A stretch of 64,000 nt of DNA, from positions 131,105 to 195,104 of the forward strand of contig CBDHDF010000004.1 in the NCBI GenBank assembly GCA_965261545.1, read 5' to 3'. Below the pieces are notes generated by a model. That model had not been told where the DNA came from. It saw nothing but the letters and a program-made list of their open reading frames with translations, and did no database searches. The DNA comes from Bdellovibrionales bacterium (GTDB lineage: Bacteria > Bdellovibrionota > Bdellovibrionia > Bdellovibrionales > UBA1609). Of this stretch, positions 53,553 through 63,118 are shown piece after piece; positions within the stretch are counted from its first letter, which is position 1; each line of letters opens with the position of its first letter. The position numbers and the translations under genes are program-made.

Positions 53553-53804
53553 TTTCTGTCTTGGGAATCGATGTCTTGGAGGCCAGTCTTAGGCATTATT
53601 TTCTTGGGAATCAAGGCCCTTTTCCTTTCCTTTTCTAAGTTGACTTGACGACGGCTTGCCTTTGCCTCATGGATAATATGGTTTTCTACAAAGTGTTTGA
53701 ATGTAGTACTTTCTAAGAAATACCTTAACTTTAGTAGGGGTTTGCCGATGAGAAAATTATAGAGAAATTTTAACGAATGTATTGTTGCATTGTGTGGAGG
53801 CAAT

Positions 53805-54188
53805 ATGGGAGCCGAGAAGAGACGAAGTGTTAGAAGGTCTGTTGATTATGTGAGTGTATGCGATCTGACTTCTTTGAACAATTATACGCTTATAGCTAGC
53901 CAGGGCTATATTGTGGATGCATCCACAAAGGGTTTTTTACTTATTCTTTCCCGAGGGGATCTCGCCCAAGCGGATCTGAGGAGAAACTTAAGCCTTGAAT
54001 CGATCATTGGACAAGAGGTGGTGTTATACCTTCCCCAAATGAACTTGGATTTGGACGGAACTGTAACAAGAGCTGTCCATGTGGGTCGCGGAACGTTTGA
54101 AGTTGCCATTGATTTCTCATCCGATATGCCAGAGTACTGGAAGGAGTGTCTTATTGATCTTCTCCCAGAGCCTGGGGAGATGGAGTGA
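53805..54188 (+). CDS. PilZ domain protein
   Basis: EKRRSVR (RxxxR) and DASTKG (DxSxxG) motifs. Confidence 0.75.
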   Translation: MGAEKRRSVRRSVDYVSVCDLTSLNNYTLIASQGYIVDASTKGFLLILSRGDLAQADLRRNLSLESIIGQEVVLYLPQMNLDLDGTVTRAVHVGRGTFEVAIDFSSDMPEYWKECLIDLLPEPGEME

Positions 54189-54886
54189 GAAAAGCTAAAG
54201 GTTTTTAGTTCATGACTCATAGGCAGAAAAAAAGACGCATCCTTTTTTTGGACCCCTTGACTTGAACTGAGAATAAAAGGTCAATACGCCGCTCATTGCC
54301 CTCTTCATCTGTAAAGACAGTTATTTCTGGTTTGAGAGTTTTCCAGTTAAAGAGCTTAAACTCCTGTGTCGTCAAGACAAGACGGAAAATATCCAGGCAA
54401 TGTGTGCCACGAAGTCACGGAGGTGACATGCTGATGTGAAGATGGAGGTAGGTCCTCCGCACTCGGATTTCAGGATTTGAGTGCAAACAACCTTGCTGCT
54501 GCATGGGAGGCAAGGCCCTTGTAGTGAGCGAGCAAGGAAAAGGCCGTAGTAAACGGTCATGTAAGTACTAGGGAGATGAGCGAAAGCAAACCCACCGACG
54601 ACGCATCGAAAGATTAACAGTCGCGTCAAAACCGAAGGAAGGTTGTCTCCGTCGGGATAAGTCTAGAGGAAGCCTGATGACCGATCTAGACGGCGTGCGG
54701 TGTATAGGGGGCATGAACCTAGTACAGGCTTCGTATCGGAACGTGGGAACCTGCTGGTGGATGATAAGGGAAACGCTATAAGGGAGACCCCCGAAGTGCT
54801 AAATACCGATGCCACCAACCAGGGGCAGAGTGATTCGTAGTAGTGATGAAGTTCTTGTAATGAGAATGGAGCGAAGGGGTCACATG

Positions 54887-55016
54887 ATTTATGGAAGTAG
54901 TCAGGCCAACTTGGTTATGCTGAGGAGGAGCCTAATGAAACGGAAAATCATAGGAGCCGTGTGAGGGGAGACTTTCAAGCACGGTTCTGTGAGGGGCAGT
55001 GGGGGAAGTTCCCACT
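54887..55016 (+). repeat. 130-bp target-site duplication of IS1634 copy 2 (left copy)
   Basis: Repeated at 57578-57707 with one mismatch (A54929 vs G57620). Confidence 0.93.
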
Positions 55017-55087
55017 CCCGAGTTTGACAGCAGCATCTGCGTCAAACGAATGATATTAAAGGATTAACGCATATAGTTGTATTTTGT

Positions 55088-56749
55088 TTATCCACACTTG
55101 TGGGCATTAAGGATTCTGGGAGGGATGGGGACGCCTGCGGCTTTAAATAAGGAGTTGGCATTGCCAGTGATATCTGTGCGGGTCCAAATGACTTGATCAC
55201 GAATTTTAACAGGGATAGCCCTAACTTCCTTGAGTTCCCTCATGGCCTCTACAACAGTTAAAGGTCGCTCTTTAACATGACCAATGCCTATGGCTGGGCT
55301 TTTTAGGTTCATCTTCTTATCTCTTAAACATTTTGTAAGGTGGGCCTCACAAAGATAAGTTAAAAAGCATAGAGTTAAATGTCCAATAATCCTCTGGTCT
55401 GTCCAATGGAAAACAGGACGTGTTTTCAAAGTCCCTTTTAACTCACCAAAAGCATCTTCAATTTTCCACAATTCTTTGTAGTTGATAATAATCTCATCTG
55501 CCGTCAAGTCTTTGACATTTGTAAGGACGGCAAAAAAACCATCAATTTTTTCATCTAATTCTATTTGTTCTGCATTTAATTCAGGTTTTTTATTTTTGTC
55601 GTCAGCCATCTTTACATATTTCTTATAACCTTTATTGGAAACAAAAGTACTAGACTGAACACCTTTAGAAGATAGTTTTCCTTCGATCTTTTCAAGAAGG
55701 GATTCTCTAGATTTTTTATCTCTCTCTGCTCTTTTCCTAGACCAAGTCACAATACATCTATGCCCCCCATGGTCTGTTTCGTAAACAGCAAGCTCATTCT
55801 CATATACCCAGCTAAAACGATTTAAATCATAGACCTCTTGTTTCTTTTCTTTTTTTAAAGATCCAAGCTTCATACCAACAATAAACTCGCTTTGATCCTC
55901 ACTGAGTTTGTCAGTATTAGCCTTTGATAAAAGCCCCCTATCAGCCACAAAAATGAAACGGCGTACATTAAACTTTTTTCTCATTTTATCAACAATATCT
56001 GAAAGCGTCTTGCCTTCAAAAGTATTACCAGGGAAAACCTCAAAACCTAAAGGGATGCCATCCCGATTCACCAACAAACCAAAGACAACTTGGGTGCAGT
56101 CTGATCGTCTCTCTTTACTATAGCCAAATTGACGAAGTTTCCCTAAGTCTGTTCTTGTACTCTCGAAGCGTAAGGTTGTTAAATCATACAACACAATGTC
56201 TACTTGGAAATTAAATAAATCTCGCCCCACCCAATAAAGCGAGTTCTCTATTTCATCCTTATGGGAGGCAAGTAAGTCCATAGACCGATAAATATGCTGG
56301 AGACTCAAATCACCCTTAATCATGTCTGGGTAAAAAGATTTTTGCCAATACTCAAAAACCTTTAACTTGGAACTAGGAGCAATAAATCGGCTGGCAACTA
56401 AGGTAAAAATCACCTTACATAAATCAAATTGAACTTTCTCATGAGAATCTTTTATGTCTTTGAGGGTCTTATTGATACCCAGTTGATCAAACAACTTTTG
56501 TAAAATCAGCAAGGGACCCAAAATGAAAGTCTCTTCGATGTAAAGCTCCTTAGCCAATTGACTCACAGTGAGAAGCTCTCGGTGGCGAGATACGGCCTGC
56601 GCCAAACTATTAATCTTATCCTCTCCTCCTTCTCCAGCCTTACCTAAGGACATGAGCATGCGTTTTTTGGATTTGCCTTTTTCTCTGTAGGACTCCACAA
56701 GGTGGTAGTAGCACTGACCTTTTGAGTTTTTAGTCGTTTGGATGTACAT
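55088..56749 (-). CDS. IS1634-family DDE transposase
   Basis: Protein identical to copy 1. Confidence 0.93.
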   Translation of the reverse strand: MYIQTTKNSKGQCYYHLVESYREKGKSKKRMLMSLGKAGEGGEDKINSLAQAVSRHRELLTVSQLAKELYIEETFILGPLLILQKLFDQLGINKTLKDIKDSHEKVQFDLCKVIFTLVASRFIAPSSKLKVFEYWQKSFYPDMIKGDLSLQHIYRSMDLLASHKDEIENSLYWVGRDLFNFQVDIVLYDLTTLRFESTRTDLGKLRQFGYSKERRSDCTQVVFGLLVNRDGIPLGFEVFPGNTFEGKTLSDIVDKMRKKFNVRRFIFVADRGLLSKANTDKLSEDQSEFIVGMKLGSLKKEKKQEVYDLNRFSWVYENELAVYETDHGGHRCIVTWSRKRAERDKKSRESLLEKIEGKLSSKGVQSSTFVSNKGYKKYVKMADDKNKKPELNAEQIELDEKIDGFFAVLTNVKDLTADEIIINYKELWKIEDAFGELKGTLKTRPVFHWTDQRIIGHLTLCFLTYLCEAHLTKCLRDKKMNLKSPAIGIGHVKERPLTVVEAMRELKEVRAIPVKIRDQVIWTRTDITGNANSLFKAAGVPIPPRILNAHKCG

Positions 56750-56918
56750 GAGGATATTTTCTACATATTTCTATGATATATCAATATTTAAAACGATAAA
56801 ATCCTATTTTGTTTTCTACACTTTTTTTGCGTCAATTTTAATTTTTCCAGCAGCTACCATTATATTTCAGTACAACCCCAATTTCTGGAAATTTCGCATT
56901 TTAACGCAGATGCTGCTG

Positions 56919-57566
56919 GTGTGCCCAGCACAATATAGGAGGTAACGACTATAGAAAGCTGACATGATGATGGTGGTAGGTCCACCGTTCTCGATTTACA
57001 GGAATTGGGAACAAACAACCCTAAGCTGCGCAGGGGGCAAGACCTGGGTGGTGAGCGTTAGGGAAAAGGCCAGAATAACTGGTCATGTGTAGTCTGTGAA
57101 GATGAGCGAAAGCGAACCATCGATGAGGCGTCGAAAATGCGTTAGTTGCTGTCAAAACCAAGGTCCCGGTAGTACCTTGGGATAAACTCGGAAGGTACCT
57201 GATTACTGGCCGAGTGGCAGCCGGCGTAAAAGGTGGCATGAGCACAGACTTGGCGTCGTGTTGGAACTGGGGAACCTACTGGTGGATGTTAAGGGAACGG
57301 CTATAAGGTGGAAACCGAAGGGCAAATACCGATGACACCAGATAGGGGCAGAGAGACTCGTAGTAGTGAAGAAGGTTCTGTAACGGAGCTGGAGCGAAGG
57401 GGTCTCCTAATATGTGAGGAAACACTAACCAGTCGGACACTCTGTGGTCCATTTAAATGGTTTACAATAGTGGAACCTCGCAAATATTAGAGGAGCCGTA
57501 TGACGGGAGACTGTCACGTACGTGTCTGTGAGGGGCAGTGGGGGAAGCTCCCACTGTCTACTCGAT
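56919..57566 (+). mobile_element. ORF-less group II intron B (RmInt1/class D-like, 648 nt) inserted in the IS1634 terminal inverted repeat
   Basis: 5' GTGTG; DV 57493-57526; 3' end CTACTCGAT. Removing it restores the IR exactly, with no duplication. EBS1 and EBS2 are complementary to the IR. Confidence 0.92.
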
Positions 57567-57577
57567 TCAAACTCGGG

Positions 57578-57707
57578 ATTTATGGAAGTAGTCAGGCCAA
57601 CTTGGTTATGCTGAGGAGGGGCCTAATGAAACGGAAAATCATAGGAGCCGTGTGAGGGGAGACTTTCAAGCACGGTTCTGTGAGGGGCAGTGGGGGAAGT
57701 TCCCACT
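57578..57707 (+). repeat. 130-bp target-site duplication of IS1634 copy 2 (right copy)
   Basis: Matches 54887-55016. Confidence 0.93.
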
Positions 57708-58316
57708 GCCTACTCGATATCTCTCATTCAGGAAAGTTTCATTGAATAGTGTTAGCTGACAATTAAAATGCCCCACCGTCGCCAATGAAAAGTGGCCACT
57801 TTTCAGAGGAGGACCTATGGTGATTTTTGGCATTGTCAACCGAGACGCATATAATCAATTGATATTACTCATAAAAAGGCTCCGAGCTGATAAGAACTCC
57901 TTTTGGGTTCTTGTCGACCTGGAAAGGGGCTCCGTGTTGGAGAGTCCTTCCATGACAGCCTATTCAGGTTCCATATTTCTCCTTTGTAGACTGTTTCTGG
58001 ATTTCAATGAGGTTAAATATATAGTCAAGAAAAGCCTGTTTAGGCTGTGCCCATTTTCTAAAGTATTTAAATTCCACAAGATTCCAACATTTGCCTCAAT
58101 TTTCATGGAATTTCTTTCTGAAGACAGGCTTCCCTTAAAGCCGTCGCCAATTAAAATGTCCCACTTTCAATATGGAGGTTGTCGCCAATGAAAAGTGACC
58201 AATCTTCAGGGAGTGTTCAAATACTAGACAATGAAGTCTCTTCTTCTGATATAGATACTAAGCTCACAGAGTCCCTCCCTTTTGCAACTCAAAAGGTTAG
58301 CAATGAGGAGGATCTT

Positions 58317-59783
58317 ATGATTAGTCAATACACTTTCGGCCGCATTCGTGACCTGAGTCACAGTGGTAAAAATAAGACAGAAATATCTCGTGAATTAGGG
58401 ATCAATCGTAAGACGGTGCGCAAGTACTGTGAGTCCAACACCCCACCGAAGTACAAGGCGAGGTCCAAAAGAACTCGCCCAGATCCCCTTAATGGATATA
58501 TGGATCGGGTGAAGTACTTTTTGAAGTTGAACCCAAGTAACACCGCCCGTGAAATATATGAGCTATTAGTTGAGGAGGGTTATCGTGGGAGTGAGAGAAC
58601 GGTTCAGAGAAGAGTTTGTGAGATTCTTGGTTCTCGCCCCAAGGAGCGTTTTTTCAGCCAAAGATATGATCCTGGAGAACAGGCTCAGTTTGATTTTAAG
58701 GAGAAGGTTGCTTTACCATTTGCCGATGGTGTTCAGATCGTTCATCTCCATTTTGGAACATTGCCTTGTAGTGGCACCTGTTGGGTTCGTGCCTACCCCT
58801 TTCTTGTCTATGAGTGTTTCATCGATGGGGTGCATGCTTTTTTTGAAAAGATAGGTGGGATGAGTGCGAACATCCGTATTGATAATTTATCTCCCTGTGT
58901 GAAGAAAGTTCTTAAAGGAAATCAGCGAATTTACACCCAATCTTTTGATCGAGCCATCCAATACTATGGATTTAAGGTTCTTCCCTGCCGCGCAGGGAAG
59001 GGCTCTGACAAGGGAGATGTGGAGCGTGATATTCGAACCTTCAGTTCTCGGATAAAAAATATTGTTAGAAACAAAGGAATTGTTTTTAAAGACTGGGATC
59101 ATTTGAATCAGTTTTTAGAGTCTTATATGGATCAGCATCAGAGTGACTCCACCAAATCTCGCTTTGAGGAGGAGGCCAAAGTTCTTAAGCCTTTGCCTCC
59201 ACGAGATGAAGATATTCTCTGTAAGGTGAATATTTGTCAAAGTAATGGTTATGGGACTTTGAGAATAGGTAAAACCACATATTCCATACCTGATGAGGTG
59301 ATCCAATCTCCCTGTAAAACCGTACAGGGTCCCTATCATGTCACGATCTATCGTGCAGGAGGGAAGCAAGAAATTGTCGCTCGCCATCAAAGAAAACCTG
59401 ATGGGGAGCATAGTCTTCTTCTTGAACATATCCTTCCCTCTTTAGTTCGTAAGCCGCAAGCCATGGTAAGATGGGCTCACCGATCCATTCTTTTTCCAAC
59501 AAATGTGTTTGAAAATTTTTATCAATACCTCAAGCAACAAGATTCAAGCCGTGCCGAGCATGAATATTTAAGAGTTATCAACTTGATTCAGCATGTGAGT
59601 TGGCAGGACTTATCTACAGCCATGGAGCTTCAATTAGAAAGTCGTGAGATTTTCGACTTTAAATCCATAAAAGATTTGCTCTTAGGCAATCCCACCAAAA
59701 TTAATTTGAATGACCAACAAAAACCACTTCAACCTAGATTGTCTCAATATGACAGTCTTGTTCCAAACATAGGAGGTTCTTAA
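58317..59783 (+). CDS. istA: IS21 transposase IstA
   Basis: HTH (EISRELGINRKTVRKY), PGEQAQFDF, DN and KGDVER motifs; GAGGAGG RBS before ATG 58317. Confidence 0.92.
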   Translation: MISQYTFGRIRDLSHSGKNKTEISRELGINRKTVRKYCESNTPPKYKARSKRTRPDPLNGYMDRVKYFLKLNPSNTAREIYELLVEEGYRGSERTVQRRVCEILGSRPKERFFSQRYDPGEQAQFDFKEKVALPFADGVQIVHLHFGTLPCSGTCWVRAYPFLVYECFIDGVHAFFEKIGGMSANIRIDNLSPCVKKVLKGNQRIYTQSFDRAIQYYGFKVLPCRAGKGSDKGDVERDIRTFSSRIKNIVRNKGIVFKDWDHLNQFLESYMDQHQSDSTKSRFEEEAKVLKPLPPRDEDILCKVNICQSNGYGTLRIGKTTYSIPDEVIQSPCKTVQGPYHVTIYRAGGKQEIVARHQRKPDGEHSLLLEHILPSLVRKPQAMVRWAHRSILFPTNVFENFYQYLKQQDSSRAEHEYLRVINLIQHVSWQDLSTAMELQLESREIFDFKSIKDLLLGNPTKINLNDQQKPLQPRLSQYDSLVPNIGGS

Positions 59784-60565
59784 TGAATCACGAAGAACTT
59801 ATAGGTTCTCTTAAAAAACTCCGACTTCCAGCGATGGCGGATGAATATGTTGCAACGGCTAGAGTTGCCGAAAAAACAAAAAAGACGTATGAACAGTATT
59901 TAGGTATACTCGTTCAAAATGAGCTTGCTGACAAGCATTCCCAGAGAGTGAAAAGATTGCTTAAGGGGGCCAAGCTTCCTCAACTTAAATCACTCCAAAC
60001 TTATAACTTCCAGAAAAGAACGGGAGTGACAGCTCAGCAAATTAATTGGATGGCAGAGGGAGAGTGGGTCAGAAAAGCCTGTAATGTTGTGTTTTACGGA
60101 AGCTTTGGAATGGGGAAAAGTCATTTGGCCATGTCCCTAGTTCGTTCACTCTGTGAACAAGGCTATCGATGTTTATGGGTCACCACTCATGAACTTATTG
60201 AAACAATGCGTGAAAGCAAGAAAGAACTCTCATTGAATGCTCTTTTTAAGAAATTAGACCGTTTTGATCTTATTGCTTGTGATGAACTTGGCTATACAGC
60301 TTCCTGCACAGAGGGTGCTGATCTTTTCTTTCAATTCATATCTCAGCGATATGAAAGGAAAAGTCTCATGATCACTACAAACTTAACTTACTCTGAATGG
60401 GATAAGGTGTTTCTTAACCCTATTACCACCGCTGCTGCTGTTGATCGAATTATTCACAACTGTGAAACCCTCAACATTGAAGGAAAAGAAAGTTGGAGAA
60501 CCGAATCGGCAAAAGCCAAGTCTAAACAGAGCAAAGAGGAAAGTTCAACCAAAGAAGTTCATTAG
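59783..60565 (+). CDS. istB: IS21 AAA+ helper ATPase IstB
   Basis: LRLP, GSFGMGKSHLA, DELGY, RYERKS and ITTNL motifs. Confidence 0.94.
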   Translation: MNHEELIGSLKKLRLPAMADEYVATARVAEKTKKTYEQYLGILVQNELADKHSQRVKRLLKGAKLPQLKSLQTYNFQKRTGVTAQQINWMAEGEWVRKACNVVFYGSFGMGKSHLAMSLVRSLCEQGYRCLWVTTHELIETMRESKKELSLNALFKKLDRFDLIACDELGYTASCTEGADLFFQFISQRYERKSLMITTNLTYSEWDKVFLNPITTAAAVDRIIHNCETLNIEGKESWRTESAKAKSKQSKEESSTKEVH

Positions 60566-60592
60566 AGATCCCCACTTTTGGGGAAGGAACTC

Positions 60593-60690
60593 GCCAGTTA
60601 TCCACAAAATTTATCCACAGCAGCACTGCGTTGCTAGACATCGGGGTCACAGCCGCAGTGTCGCCATGGATAAATTTATGGATAACTGGC
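60593..60690. repeat. Long imperfect inverted repeat containing DnaA-box-like 9-mers, inside the IS21 right arm
   Basis: Arms at 60593-60630 and 60654-60690; TTATCCACA at 60598 and 60611. Confidence 0.8.
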
Positions 60691-61077
60691 TTTTACCGTA
60701 CTATTTGCTCGTCACTCTCGCGGAGCTTTAGACATTAGCTGCGCCAAGGAATCCTGAAAAATACTCCATTTACCTCTGCCATAGGGCTGAAGGATGCATT
60801 TGGGGTCATGCCAAAAGTGGTGGGCAGAAAATCATTCCTCAGAATCTTGTGGCATAGTCCGAGTTAAATGATGAGCAAAATAAAGACACTTGACTAAACT
60901 CTGAACGAAGAATAACTAAATCAGTACATCATCAACTGGCCGTTTTTCATTGGCGACGGCTTCTAAAAATGGCCAATTTTAATTGGCGCCTAACAAATAG
61001 AGCATTGTGGGACTGAGACTGTTGTTTTCTTTTTTCTGAGGTTTTCTTTGGCGGCAATGTCAGTCTTTCAAGTTAAG

Positions 61078-61141
61078 AGGGTTTTAGATGGGTGGTTTAA
61101 AAAGATTATGGGCAAGTGAGCGGAGTTATCTGTTCATAAAT
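61078..61141 (+). repeat. 64-bp target-site duplication of IS1634 copy 3 (left copy)
   Basis: Identical to 63055-63118. Confidence 0.93.
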
Positions 61142-63054
61142 CCCGAGTTTGACAGCAGCATCTGCGTTAAAATGCGAAATTTCCAGAAATTGGGGTTGTA
61201 CTGAAATATAATGGTAGCTGCTGGAAAAATTAAAATTGACGTAAAAAAAGTGTAGAAAACAAAATAGGATTTTATCGTTTTAAATATTGATATATCATAG
61301 AAATATGTAGAAAATATCCTCATGTACATCCAAACGACTAAAAACTCAAAAGGTCAGTGCTACTACCACCTTGTGGAGTCCTACAGAGAAAAAGGCAAAT
61401 CCAAAAAACGCATGCTCATGTCCTTAGGTAAGGCTGGAGAAGGAGGAGAGGATAAGATTAATAGTTTGGCGCAGGCCGTATCCCGCCACCGAGAGCTTCT
61501 CACTGTGAGTCAATTGGCTAAGGAGCTTTACATCGAAGAGACTTTCATTTTGGGTCCCTTGCTGATTTTACAAAAGTTGTTTGATCAACTGGGTATCAAT
61601 AAGACCCTCAAAGACATAAAAGATTCTCATGAGAAAGTTCAATTTGATTTATGTAAGGTGATTTTTACCTTAGTTGCCACCCGATTTATTGCTCCTAGTT
61701 CCAAGTTAAAGGTTTTTGAGTATTGGCAAAAATCTTTTTACCCAGACATGATTAAGGGTGATTTGAGTCTCCAGCATATTTATCGGTCTATGGACTTACT
61801 TGCCTCCCATAAGGATGAAATAGAGAACTCGCTTTATTGGGTGGGGCGAGATTTATTTAATTTCCAAGTAGACATTGTGTTGTATGATTTAACAACCTTA
61901 CGCTTCGAGAGTACAAGAACAGACTTAGGGAAACTTCGTCAATTTGGCTATAGTAAAGAGAGACGATCAGACTGCACCCAAGTTGTCTTTGGTTTGTTGG
62001 TGAATCGGGATGGCATCCCTTTAGGTTTTGAGGTTTTCCCTGGTAATACTTTTGAAGGCAAGACGCTTTCAGATATTGTTGATAAAATGAGAAAAAAGTT
62101 TAATGTACGCCGTTTCATTTTTGTGGCTGATAGGGGGCTTTTATCAAAGGCTAATACTGACAAACTCAGTGAGGATCAAAGCGAGTTTATTGTTGGTATG
62201 AAGCTTGGATCTTTAAAAAAAGAAAAGAAACAAGAGGTCTATGATTTAAATCGTTTTAGCTGGGTATATGAGAATGAGCTTGCTGTTTACGAAACAGACC
62301 ATGGGGGGCATAGATGTATTGTGACTTGGTCTAGGAAAAGAGCAGAGAGAGATAAAAAATCTAGAGAATCCCTTCTTGAAAAGATCGAAGGAAAACTATC
62401 TTCTAAAGGTGTTCAGTCTAGTACTTTTGTTTCCAATAAAGGTTATAAGAAATATGTAAAGATGGCTGACGACAAAAATAAAAAACCTGAATTAAATGCA
62501 GAACAAATAGAATTAGATGAAAAAATTGATGGTTTTTTTGCCGTCCTTACAAATGTCAAAGACTTGACGGCAGATGAGATTATTATCAACTACAAAGAAT
62601 TGTGGAAAATTGAAGATGCTTTTGGTGAGTTAAAAGGGACTTTGAAAACACGTCCTGTTTTCCATTGGACAGACCAGAGGATTATTGGACATTTAACTCT
62701 ATGCTTTTTAACTTATCTTTGTGAGGCCCACCTTACAAAATGTTTAAGAGATAAGAAGATGAACCTAAAAAGCCCAGCCATAGGCATTGGTCATGTTAAA
62801 GAGCGACCTTTAACTGTTGTAGAGGCCATGAGGGAACTCAAGGAAGTTAGGGCTATCCCTGTTAAAATTCGTGATCAAGTCATTTGGACCCGCACAGATA
62901 TCACTGGCAATGCCAACTCCTTATTTAAAGCCGCAGGCGTCCCCATCCCTCCCAGAATCCTTAATGCCCACAAGTGTGGATAAACAAAATACAACTATAT
63001 GCGTTAATCCTTTAATATCATTCGTTTGACGCAGATGCTGCTGTCAAACTCGGG
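61142..63054 (+). mobile_element. IS1634-family element, copy 3 (1913 bp)
   Basis: Both 26-bp IRs are intact; flanked by a perfect 64-bp direct repeat. Confidence 0.94.
61322..62983 (+). CDS. IS1634-family DDE transposase
   Basis: One amino-acid difference from copies 1 and 2 (VATRF vs VASRF). Confidence 0.93.
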   Translation: MYIQTTKNSKGQCYYHLVESYREKGKSKKRMLMSLGKAGEGGEDKINSLAQAVSRHRELLTVSQLAKELYIEETFILGPLLILQKLFDQLGINKTLKDIKDSHEKVQFDLCKVIFTLVATRFIAPSSKLKVFEYWQKSFYPDMIKGDLSLQHIYRSMDLLASHKDEIENSLYWVGRDLFNFQVDIVLYDLTTLRFESTRTDLGKLRQFGYSKERRSDCTQVVFGLLVNRDGIPLGFEVFPGNTFEGKTLSDIVDKMRKKFNVRRFIFVADRGLLSKANTDKLSEDQSEFIVGMKLGSLKKEKKQEVYDLNRFSWVYENELAVYETDHGGHRCIVTWSRKRAERDKKSRESLLEKIEGKLSSKGVQSSTFVSNKGYKKYVKMADDKNKKPELNAEQIELDEKIDGFFAVLTNVKDLTADEIIINYKELWKIEDAFGELKGTLKTRPVFHWTDQRIIGHLTLCFLTYLCEAHLTKCLRDKKMNLKSPAIGIGHVKERPLTVVEAMRELKEVRAIPVKIRDQVIWTRTDITGNANSLFKAAGVPIPPRILNAHKCG

Positions 63055-63118
63055 AGGGTTTTAGATGGGTGGTTTAAAAAGATTATGGGCAAGTGAGCGG
63101 AGTTATCTGTTCATAAAT
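63055..63118 (+). repeat. 64-bp target-site duplication of IS1634 copy 3 (right copy)
   Basis: Identical to 61078-61141. Confidence 0.93.

What the first reader, a model, noticed from the sequence alone, without database searches (positions are those of the whole stretch)
54402..57718. Intron-IS-intron nest: a long target duplication could place a whole IS1634 and a second intron inside domain IV of group II intron A
Seen: IS1634 copy 2 inserted in DVI of intron A and duplicated 130 bp (54887-55016 = 57578-57707), covering most of DIV, all of DV and most of DVI. The complete 5' strand of the DIV basal stem (ATGATTT, 54884-54890) exists only once. Its partner AAATCAT exists twice (54945-54951 and 57636-57642). 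Only the downstream copy is followed by a complete DV, DVI with branch A and the 3' end (57718). Known: DIV is the tolerant loop that normally carries the RT ORF. Inference: pairing with the downstream strand would give a full six-domain ribozyme with about 2.7 kb of cargo (antisense transposase plus intron B) looped out, making a twintron that carries an IS. Splicing of B would also restore the broken IS end at the RNA level. The competing local fold would be dead because its DVI is truncated.
Basis: partly seen in the sequence, partly recalled or inferred. Interest (0 to 1): 0.85.

Follow-up and report, generated by a model that had tools for sequence, protein, structure and literature searches.

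The report
One-off intron-transposon-intron insertion pile
A self-splicing intron was hit by a jumping gene that routinely duplicates long stretches of its target, and a second intron then landed in that jumping gene's end; the duplication left a spare intact intron tail, so a little correct splicing is conceivable, but the nest exists once and looks like an accident, not a new mobile element.

Summary
The nest is real: ORF-less class-D-like group II intron A (54402-57718) holds an IS1634 (55017-57577) flanked by a 130-bp duplication (one mismatch), and intron B (56919-57566) sits 11 bp inside the IS end. The duplication is ordinary here: 17 of 22 other full-length copies have 8-409 bp (median 145), as published for IS1634. 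About 20% of such hits in A would allow a domain-IV loop-out. B follows normal EBS-IBS rules, like RmInt2. The composite is single-copy, antisense inside a dead Rpn-like gene remnant, and the three copies of the closest maturase in this assembly are all broken. The long-range fold is plausible but minor (computed about 9% versus 77% local). The IS inverted repeats clamp both copies together but also mask B's exon-binding sites. Use of a downstream D4b-D5-D6 repeat has a precedent (C.te.I1). Verdict: a recent insertion pile; low-level splicing about 0.2, cargo retrohoming about 0.03. Earlier scan notes describe other introns of this genome, not this nest. No RNA or raw-read test was possible.

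The parts
54223..54401 (-). Remnant of an Rpn/YhgA-like transposase gene on the minus strand; on the plus strand it is the 5' exon of intron A (IBS1 GGCAAT 54396-54401)
   Evidence: About 20 copies at 95-98% identity in the genome; a full copy hits PF04754 over cut-off and TIGR01784 below cut-off; the window piece is cut at 54223 and has stops in the frame read
54402..55016 (+). Intron A, 5' copy, nt 1-615: DI-DIII (to 54883), EBS1 54642-54647, gamma A54827, DIV 54884-54951, DV 54954-54987, truncated DVI 54990-55016
   Evidence: Rfam RF01999 88.5 bits and RF00029 55.1 bits; fold and alignment; gamma covariation
54887..55016 (+). Left copy of the 130-bp target duplication
55017..56918 (-). IS1634 body with one intact terminal inverted repeat (55017-55046) and the inner 19 bp of the other (56900-56918)
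   Evidence: 22 other full-length copies at >99.6% identity; inverted repeats
55088..56749 (-). IS1634 family DDE transposase, 553 aa, open frame
   Evidence: NF033559 385 bits, cut-off 100; PF01609
56919..57566 (+). Intron B, 648 nt, ORF-less, complete; EBS2 57138-57143 matches IBS2 56903-56908, EBS1 57167-57173 matches IBS1 56912-56918
   Evidence: RF01999 93.4 bits, RF00029 43.4 bits; 3 other full-length copies at >99%; EBS match read from the sequence
57567..57577 (+). Outer 11 bp of the interrupted IS1634 inverted repeat (3' exon of B)
   Evidence: The uninterrupted end occurs 35 times exactly
57578..57718 (+). Intron A, 3' copy, nt 486-626: DIV part 57578-57642, DV 57645-57678, DVI 57681-57716, branch A 57712, end 57718; 57578-57707 is the right copy of the duplication
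   Evidence: RF00029 66 bits; folds
57719..57749 (-). Continuation of the Rpn-like remnant (3' exon of A), cut after 31 bp by an IS21 element (57750-60995, 5-bp duplication)

Best explanation
A recent, single-locus pile of three ordinary insertions with no joint function. (1) ORF-less class-D-like intron A reverse-spliced into the antisense strand of a dead Rpn-like gene remnant, using an RT supplied in trans (inferred). (2) IS1634 inserted after nt 615 of A and made its usual long duplication, which by chance copied DIV 3' strand-DV-DVI. (3) Intron B reverse-spliced into the IS inverted repeat, because that repeat mimics B's normal target, and broke that IS end, so this IS copy probably cannot transpose (inferred). 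If the locus is transcribed, most molecules should fold locally (DI-DV plus a DVI stump) and give no ligated exons, a minority may splice at 57718, and the IS repeat helix should hinder B. A likely way out is at DNA level: recombination between the 130-bp repeats would delete IS plus B and leave a complete intron A (inferred). Shown: anatomy, order of nesting, copy numbers, target matches. Computed: fold populations. Inferred: everything about transcription, splicing and fate.
For: Duplications of 8-409 bp (median 145) at 17 of 22 other full-length IS copies; they end in T in 17 of 17 and start with A in 16 of 17, as here; 8-514 bp is published for IS1549/IS1634 (PMC2266710). With this genome's lengths, 2807 of 14375 simulated hits in A (20%) allow a DIV loop-out and 540 of 14375 (4%) give the class seen. 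Eight A copies are broken by other elements at scattered positions, 1 of 8 in DIV proper, which is 11% of the length; a second IS1634-in-A with a 241-bp duplication lies at C2:236742-239521. All 6 junctions occur once in the genome; the A|IS junction had 0 matches in the metagenome collection. B occupies 1 IS1634 end against 73 exact empty ends. The exon is antisense in a truncated gene remnant. The three copies of the closest RT are truncated, frameshifted or interrupted. Local DIV about 0.77 versus long-range about 0.09; B's IBS1 about 0 unpaired. Cargo over 1 kb strongly hinders Ll.LtrB (10.1101/2021.05.01.442236). A rho gene is present and the IS interior is C-rich over G on this strand (0.214 versus 0.162).
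Against: The two folds differ by only 2.0-2.7 kcal/mol, within model error, and tertiary contacts that favour the complete DVI are not modelled. The local DIV stem is weak in unconstrained folds of the early transcript (0.00-0.17; 0.3 even in free A), so kinetic trapping of the local fold is not shown. RT-bearing relatives carry about 1.3 kb in DIV. C.te.I1 uses downstream D5/6 repeats in vivo. A single copy could simply mean a very young composite. The genome is 96.8% complete, so an intact maturase or a second copy could be missing. No raw reads confirm the nesting.
Confidence: 0.72

Rival explanations
1. Splicing-competent but immobile composite: the IS inverted repeats fold the 2.5-kb insert into a clamped loop, strand exchange between the two 130-nt copies joins DI-DIVa to the downstream DIVb-DV-DVI, and a measurable fraction splices at 57718, as with the downstream 3' sites of C.te.I1.
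For: TIR helix forms with probability near 1 and long-range DIV holds about 9%; 2.0 kcal/mol gap; gamma-gamma' (A-U) is kept only at 57718; C.te.I1 precedent, with 75-95% of transcripts left unspliced.
Against: An intact upstream DV competes; no promoter or RNA is shown; antisense transposase transcription and Rho are likely obstacles (inference); no intact cognate maturase in the assembly; RmInt1, the model class D intron, ligates under 1% of exons in vivo (PMC4238363).
Confidence: 0.18
2. The IS tip completes a surrogate domain VI: the upstream copy has A at the branch-equivalent position (55021) and an AC end at 55028, so a 627-nt intron could be excised and the 5' exon joined to the IS remainder.
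For: Sequence of the chimeric end; Rfam still scores the upstream DV-DVI at 55.1 bits; the next base is A, as at most natural sites.
Against: Terminal C mismatches gamma A (AGA with U end in 3 of 3 local introns, GGA with C end in 8 of 8 relatives); chimeric hairpin -16.3 versus -24.1 kcal/mol; those bases are sequestered in the TIR helix.
Confidence: 0.04
3. One reading: a twintron that retrohomes as a 3.3-kb (or 2.7-kb after loss of B) unit and delivers a repaired IS1634 to new sites.
For: Topologically possible; A is actively mobile (8 identical copies, head-to-tail pairs); DIV is the normal cargo site.
Against: 0 further copies in the genome or the metagenome collection; none of the other interrupted A copies shares a breakpoint with another; cargo limits; T. 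elongatus twintron partners appear to move separately (PMC2882425).
Confidence: 0.03
4. Assembly artefact from collapsing repeats.
For: No listed contig of 4 public runs bridges an internal junction (80 pieces were not shown); the locus has a few private differences (56588, 57228, 57620).
Against: Every junction is mechanistically precise: duplication starting with A and ending with T like the other copies, B at an EBS-matched site, A at the only Rpn allele with the better upstream match.
Confidence: 0.03

Closest known systems
[quoted passage not shown]
   Same: One 5' ribozyme half (D1-4a) with a further D4b/D5/D6 module kilobases downstream; ORF-less; competition between proximal and distal DV.
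   Different: C.te.I1 is class B, has four complete D5/6 modules, fuses coding exons in frame and is shown to splice in vivo. Here the extra module is an IS target duplication, the proximal DVI is truncated, the exons are antisense to a dead gene, and no splicing is shown.
IS1634 (Mycoplasma mycoides) and IS1549 (Mycobacterium smegmatis) with long variable direct repeats (PMC2266710; passages read)
   Same: Family by HMM; duplications of 8-409 bp here versus 8-514 bp published.
   Different: This copy has one end interrupted by an intron. Other family members make only 5-6 bp (PMC2266710; PMC8024623, passages).
RmInt2 of Sinorhizobium meliloti, class D, homing into ISRm17 inverted repeats (PMC4615759; passages read)
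   Same: Class-D-type intron inserted in an IS terminal repeat by EBS-IBS pairing; head-to-tail copies, as seen for A.
   Different: RmInt2 encodes its RT and uses the repeats as its main target; B is ORF-less, mostly targets a site in IS21, and hit this IS1634 end once.
Bacterial and archaeal twintrons and ORF-less introns: Thermosynechococcus elongatus TeI3/TeI4 (PMC2882425), Methanosarcina nests (PMC4424553) (passages read)
   Same: ORF-less mobile introns, nested piles outside essential genes, IS inside an intron (TeI4g::ISEL2f).
   Different: B did not home into intron sequence but into an IS inside it, and the site is not recurrent.
IStrons of Clostridium (PMC3073962; passage read)
   Same: An intron joined with an IS.
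   Different: IStrons are group I introns with an IS605-like element and form a recurring unit; this is a group II intron with a DDE IS, seen once.

Membership tests
Group II intron, IIB / bacterial class D-like (A and B) | 5' GUGYG and 3' AY ends at precise exon boundaries | tested here: met
   Same ends at all full copies; uninterrupted site in 21 genome copies and as a joint in 4 runs
Group II intron, IIB / bacterial class D-like (A and B) | 34-nt DV with AGC triad; DVI with bulged A near the end | tested here: met
   DV 553-586; bulged A at -7; RF00029 66 and 43.4 bits
Group II intron, IIB / bacterial class D-like (A and B) | EBS1-IBS1 and EBS2-IBS2 pairing | tested here: met
   EBS1 matches for A and B, EBS2 6 of 6 for B. 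EBS2 of A is only weakly defined: inconclusive for A
Group II intron, IIB / bacterial class D-like (A and B) | gamma-gamma' pair | tested here: met
   A-U in 3 of 3 local introns, G-C in 8 of 8 relatives
Group II intron, IIB / bacterial class D-like (A and B) | RT/maturase ORF with class D motif in DIV | tested here: not met
   A and B are ORF-less. The most similar RT intron in the genome carries the motif with C for the first L (motif from PMC4615759), so class is assigned by RNA likeness only; no tree was built
Group II intron, IIB / bacterial class D-like (A and B) | Self-splicing or maturase-aided splicing | not testable with these tools
   No RNA holder listed
IS1634 | IS1634-family DDE transposase | tested here: met
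   NF033559 385 bits, cut-off 100
IS1634 | Terminal inverted repeats beginning with C; long variable target duplication (IS1549/IS1634 type) | tested here: met
   30-bp repeats; 8-409 bp duplications
IS1634 | Two intact ends on this copy | tested here: not met
   B interrupts one end 11 bp from the tip
Twintron | One intron lies between the ends of another | tested here: met
   B lies inside 54402-57718, by way of the IS
Twintron | Inner intron homes to a site in the outer intron's own sequence, recurrently | tested here: not met
   B's flanks are IS21 or IS-end sequence at all copies with a mapped 5' end; junctions single-copy
Twintron | Sequential splicing of inner then outer intron | not testable with these tools
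   Only folding was possible; it predicts masking of B's exon sites
C.te.I1-type alternative 3' splicing | Downstream D4b/D5/D6 module able to pair with D4a | tested here: met
   (sequence and computed fold)
C.te.I1-type alternative 3' splicing | Splicing joins functional coding exons | tested here: not met
   Exons are the antisense strand of a truncated remnant
IStron | Group I ribozyme fused to an IS200/IS605 element | tested here: not met
   Group II Rfam hits and a DDE IS1634 transposase

The most novel reading that the evidence does not exclude
Long-duplication IS1634 elements can insert into a structured RNA without destroying it: the duplication leaves overlapping complete 5' and 3' halves, and the IS inverted repeats clamp the insert into a loop so that the halves re-pair. 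Here that would create, in one step, a C.te.I1-like distal 3' splice module and a group II intron that excises with a whole IS inside, a possible route to alternative 3' splice sites and, at the extreme (about 0.03), to intron-borne IS spread.
Probability: 0.18. Interest if true: 0.65.

Novelty: new variant of a known kind. Interest (0 to 1): 0.32.

Why it matters
If the composite splices, it would show how a duplicated DV-DVI module like those of C.te.I1 can arise in a single transposition event, and that long-duplication ISs can be partly silent at RNA level in ribozymes. The genome offers a ready comparison set (IS-free A, this nest, a 241-bp duplication in DI-DIII, a 3.9-kb insert in DIV). 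If it does not, it is one of many insertion piles in an IS-saturated genome and matters little.

Tried and rejected
Public runs: no RNA holder listed; this says nothing on expression. Contigs of 4 of the 7 listed runs (2 samples) gave the joint 54399 to 57717, the empty site, but 21 uninterrupted Rpn-like copies in the genome can produce it, so I do not count it as an empty allele of this locus or as splicing; no listed contig bridged an internal junction and 80 pieces were not shown. Intron A was not found in 40 related genomes searched. Exact-pattern scans found nothing; a looser pattern gave 19 loci, of which 15 were examined (4 with too little upstream DNA left out) and 8 used for covariation. 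Unconstrained folding of the 3.4-kb RNA mispaired DIV and DVI with IS sequence and is unreliable. Promoter (14 found, 6.7 +/- 3.0 expected) and terminator scans (6 found, 3.6 +/- 1.9 expected; one weak plus-strand site at 55286) gave nothing decisive. The 57620 change was considered as an adaptation; it can serve either fold, so it was rejected as evidence. Class IIC was rejected for A (34-nt DV, AGC triad, class D-like relatives). Paper searches (listings only) showed no report of an IS target duplication copying DV of a group II intron; the library lacks most subscription papers. PMC12584367 (abstract) and PMC8643678 (passages) were opened and not used. No supplements were read; those of PMC3919590 and PMC4615759 may bear on splice-form levels and target details.
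Full report
Observation. The region reads, on the plus strand: 5' exon to 54401; intron A nt 1-615 (54402-55016); IS1634 (55017-56918); intron B (56919-57566); the last 11 bp of the IS (57567-57577); intron A nt 486-626 (57578-57718). Rfam finds two DI matches and three DV-DVI matches at these places. The duplication is 130 bp with one mismatch. Removing the IS and one copy gives a 626-nt intron identical to 8 copies elsewhere; 2 more full copies differ slightly. The domain calls hold: DIV 54884-54951, DV 34 nt, branch A seven bases from the end. The DIV stem differs in sequence but pairs in B. Two details need correction: AAATCAT occurs four times, and the downstream copy keeps five of the seven bases of the 5' strand.

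What the parts are. A and B are ORF-less and about 71% identical. Their RNA aligns over DI-DIII with one RT-bearing intron of this genome far better than with six other regions tried (scores 159 and 116 versus at most 53). That RT carries a near match to the class D motif given in PMC4615759. Relatives in plasmids and genomes carry an RT about 1.3 kb long in DIV, and two of 15 examined loci are ORF-less like A. The gamma-gamma' pair covaries. I call them class-D-like IIB introns by likeness; no tree was built. The transposase is IS1634 family. The host sequence is the antisense strand of a truncated Rpn/YhgA-like gene remnant, further hit by an IS21 31 bp downstream and by another IS1634.

Each insertion follows known rules. 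A's main target is a Mutator/IS256-type transposase gene (8 occupied 5' junctions, 59 empty). The invaded Rpn-like remnant has an upstream motif like that target, unlike all 21 uninterrupted copies. B's EBS1 and EBS2 match the IS inverted repeat, which mimics its usual site in IS21 (5 occupied, 54 exact empty); it occupies 1 end of this IS against 73 exact empty ends, and one end of a related IS. RmInt2 does the same in ISRm17. The IS makes long duplications throughout the genome: 17 of 22 other full-length copies have 8-409 bp, median 145, and 5 have none detectable. IS1549 and IS1634 are reported at 8-514 bp.

How special is the geometry? Using 23 duplication lengths measured and every position in A, 20% of hits leave an intact DI-DIVa upstream and an intact DIVb-DVI downstream, against 10% for a 5-bp duplication; 4% give the class seen here. 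Eight copies of A are broken by other elements, at scattered positions (one degenerate copy at C2:494623 was left out). One such geometry among eight hits needs no selection.

Could it splice? With A's DI-DIII and B held in their free folds, the local DIV fold is 2.0 kcal/mol lower than the long-range one; the ensemble gives about 0.77 local and 0.09 long-range. Because the whole arm is duplicated, both conformers form nearly the same pairs, so the unique 5' strand gives no drive towards the distal copy. These numbers ignore tertiary contacts, EBS-IBS pairing and kinetics; the left repeat also forms its own hairpin (-12.9 kcal/mol), and the local DIV stem is weak in unconstrained folds. The local fold keeps DI-DV, so it may cleave the 5' site by hydrolysis (recalled knowledge, not from a call). 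The IS tip offers a surrogate end at 55028, but it breaks gamma-gamma'. C.te.I1 shows that distal D4b/5/6 modules can be used in vivo at low level, so low-level splicing is not excluded.

Could it move? All six junctions are single-copy and the A-IS junction is absent from the metagenome collection scanned. Engineered cargo over 1 kb strongly hinders Ll.LtrB, while this cargo is 2745 nt. The three copies of the closest RT are broken in this 96.8% complete assembly, although the identical A copies imply a recent donor. Restoring the IS end on RNA matters only if that RNA is copied back to DNA. A rho gene is present and the untranslated IS interior is C-rich over G on this strand, which makes full-length transcripts less likely (inference). 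Public runs are contigs only and neither confirm nor refute the nest.

Verdict. The structure is real and correctly described, with small corrections. Its most likely nature is a recent accidental pile (0.72) whose probable way out is deletion between the 130-bp repeats. A splicing-competent but immobile composite gets 0.18 and a mobile cargo twintron 0.03. It works like a C.te.I1 distal 3' module if it works at all, but it fails membership of that system, of IStrons and of recurrent twintrons. My paper searches (listings only) showed no report of this route to a duplicated DV-DVI, so I rate it a new variant of known kinds, interest 0.32, rising to about 0.65 if splicing through the clamped IS were shown.

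Noticed in passing
G000:C11:520568-525747 (L031): Intron A with a 3922-bp insert (IS4 transposase plus a different IS1634-family transposase) inside DIV, 10-bp duplication, followed head-to-tail by another A. A cleaner DIV-cargo case than the finding; single copy.
   Followed up: partly
G000:C2:236742-239521 (L032): Second IS1634 inside intron A, 241-bp duplication over nt 212-452, transposase in the same sense as the intron.
   Followed up: partly
G000:C2:463512-464144: Chimeric 633-nt intron: B-type 5' part and the last 274 nt identical to A, with a B-type 5' exon; recombination or template switch between the two families.
   Followed up: partly
G000:C10:508798-511605: Intron B interrupted by an antisense RT-encoding group II intron (463-aa frame): a direct intron-in-intron case.
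   Followed up: no
G000:C11:870416-874090: The class-D-like RT gene is split by a 1.9-kb element encoding a recombinase-like 544-aa protein (family recalled, not scanned); if that element excises it could supply the maturase for A and B.
   Followed up: no
G000:C2:298900-313100: Tandem array, period about 1.7 kb, of near-identical Rpn/YhgA-like genes that differ in the number of 12-nt repeats near their 3' end.
   Followed up: partly
G000:C2:405046-406297: Two identical A copies head-to-tail, as reported for RmInt2.
   Followed up: partly
window 57750-63118: IS21 (57750-60995, 5-bp duplication) and a further IS1634 (61142-63054, 64-bp duplication) interrupt the same Rpn-like remnant, so the pile has five insertions.
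   Followed up: yes
L033 and L039: ORF-less relatives of A in two other bacterial genomes, with only about 175 nt from DIII to the intron end.
   Followed up: no
window 53790-54188: 132-aa ORF just upstream on the plus strand, a possible source of read-through; no NCBIfam or Pfam hit.
   Followed up: partly
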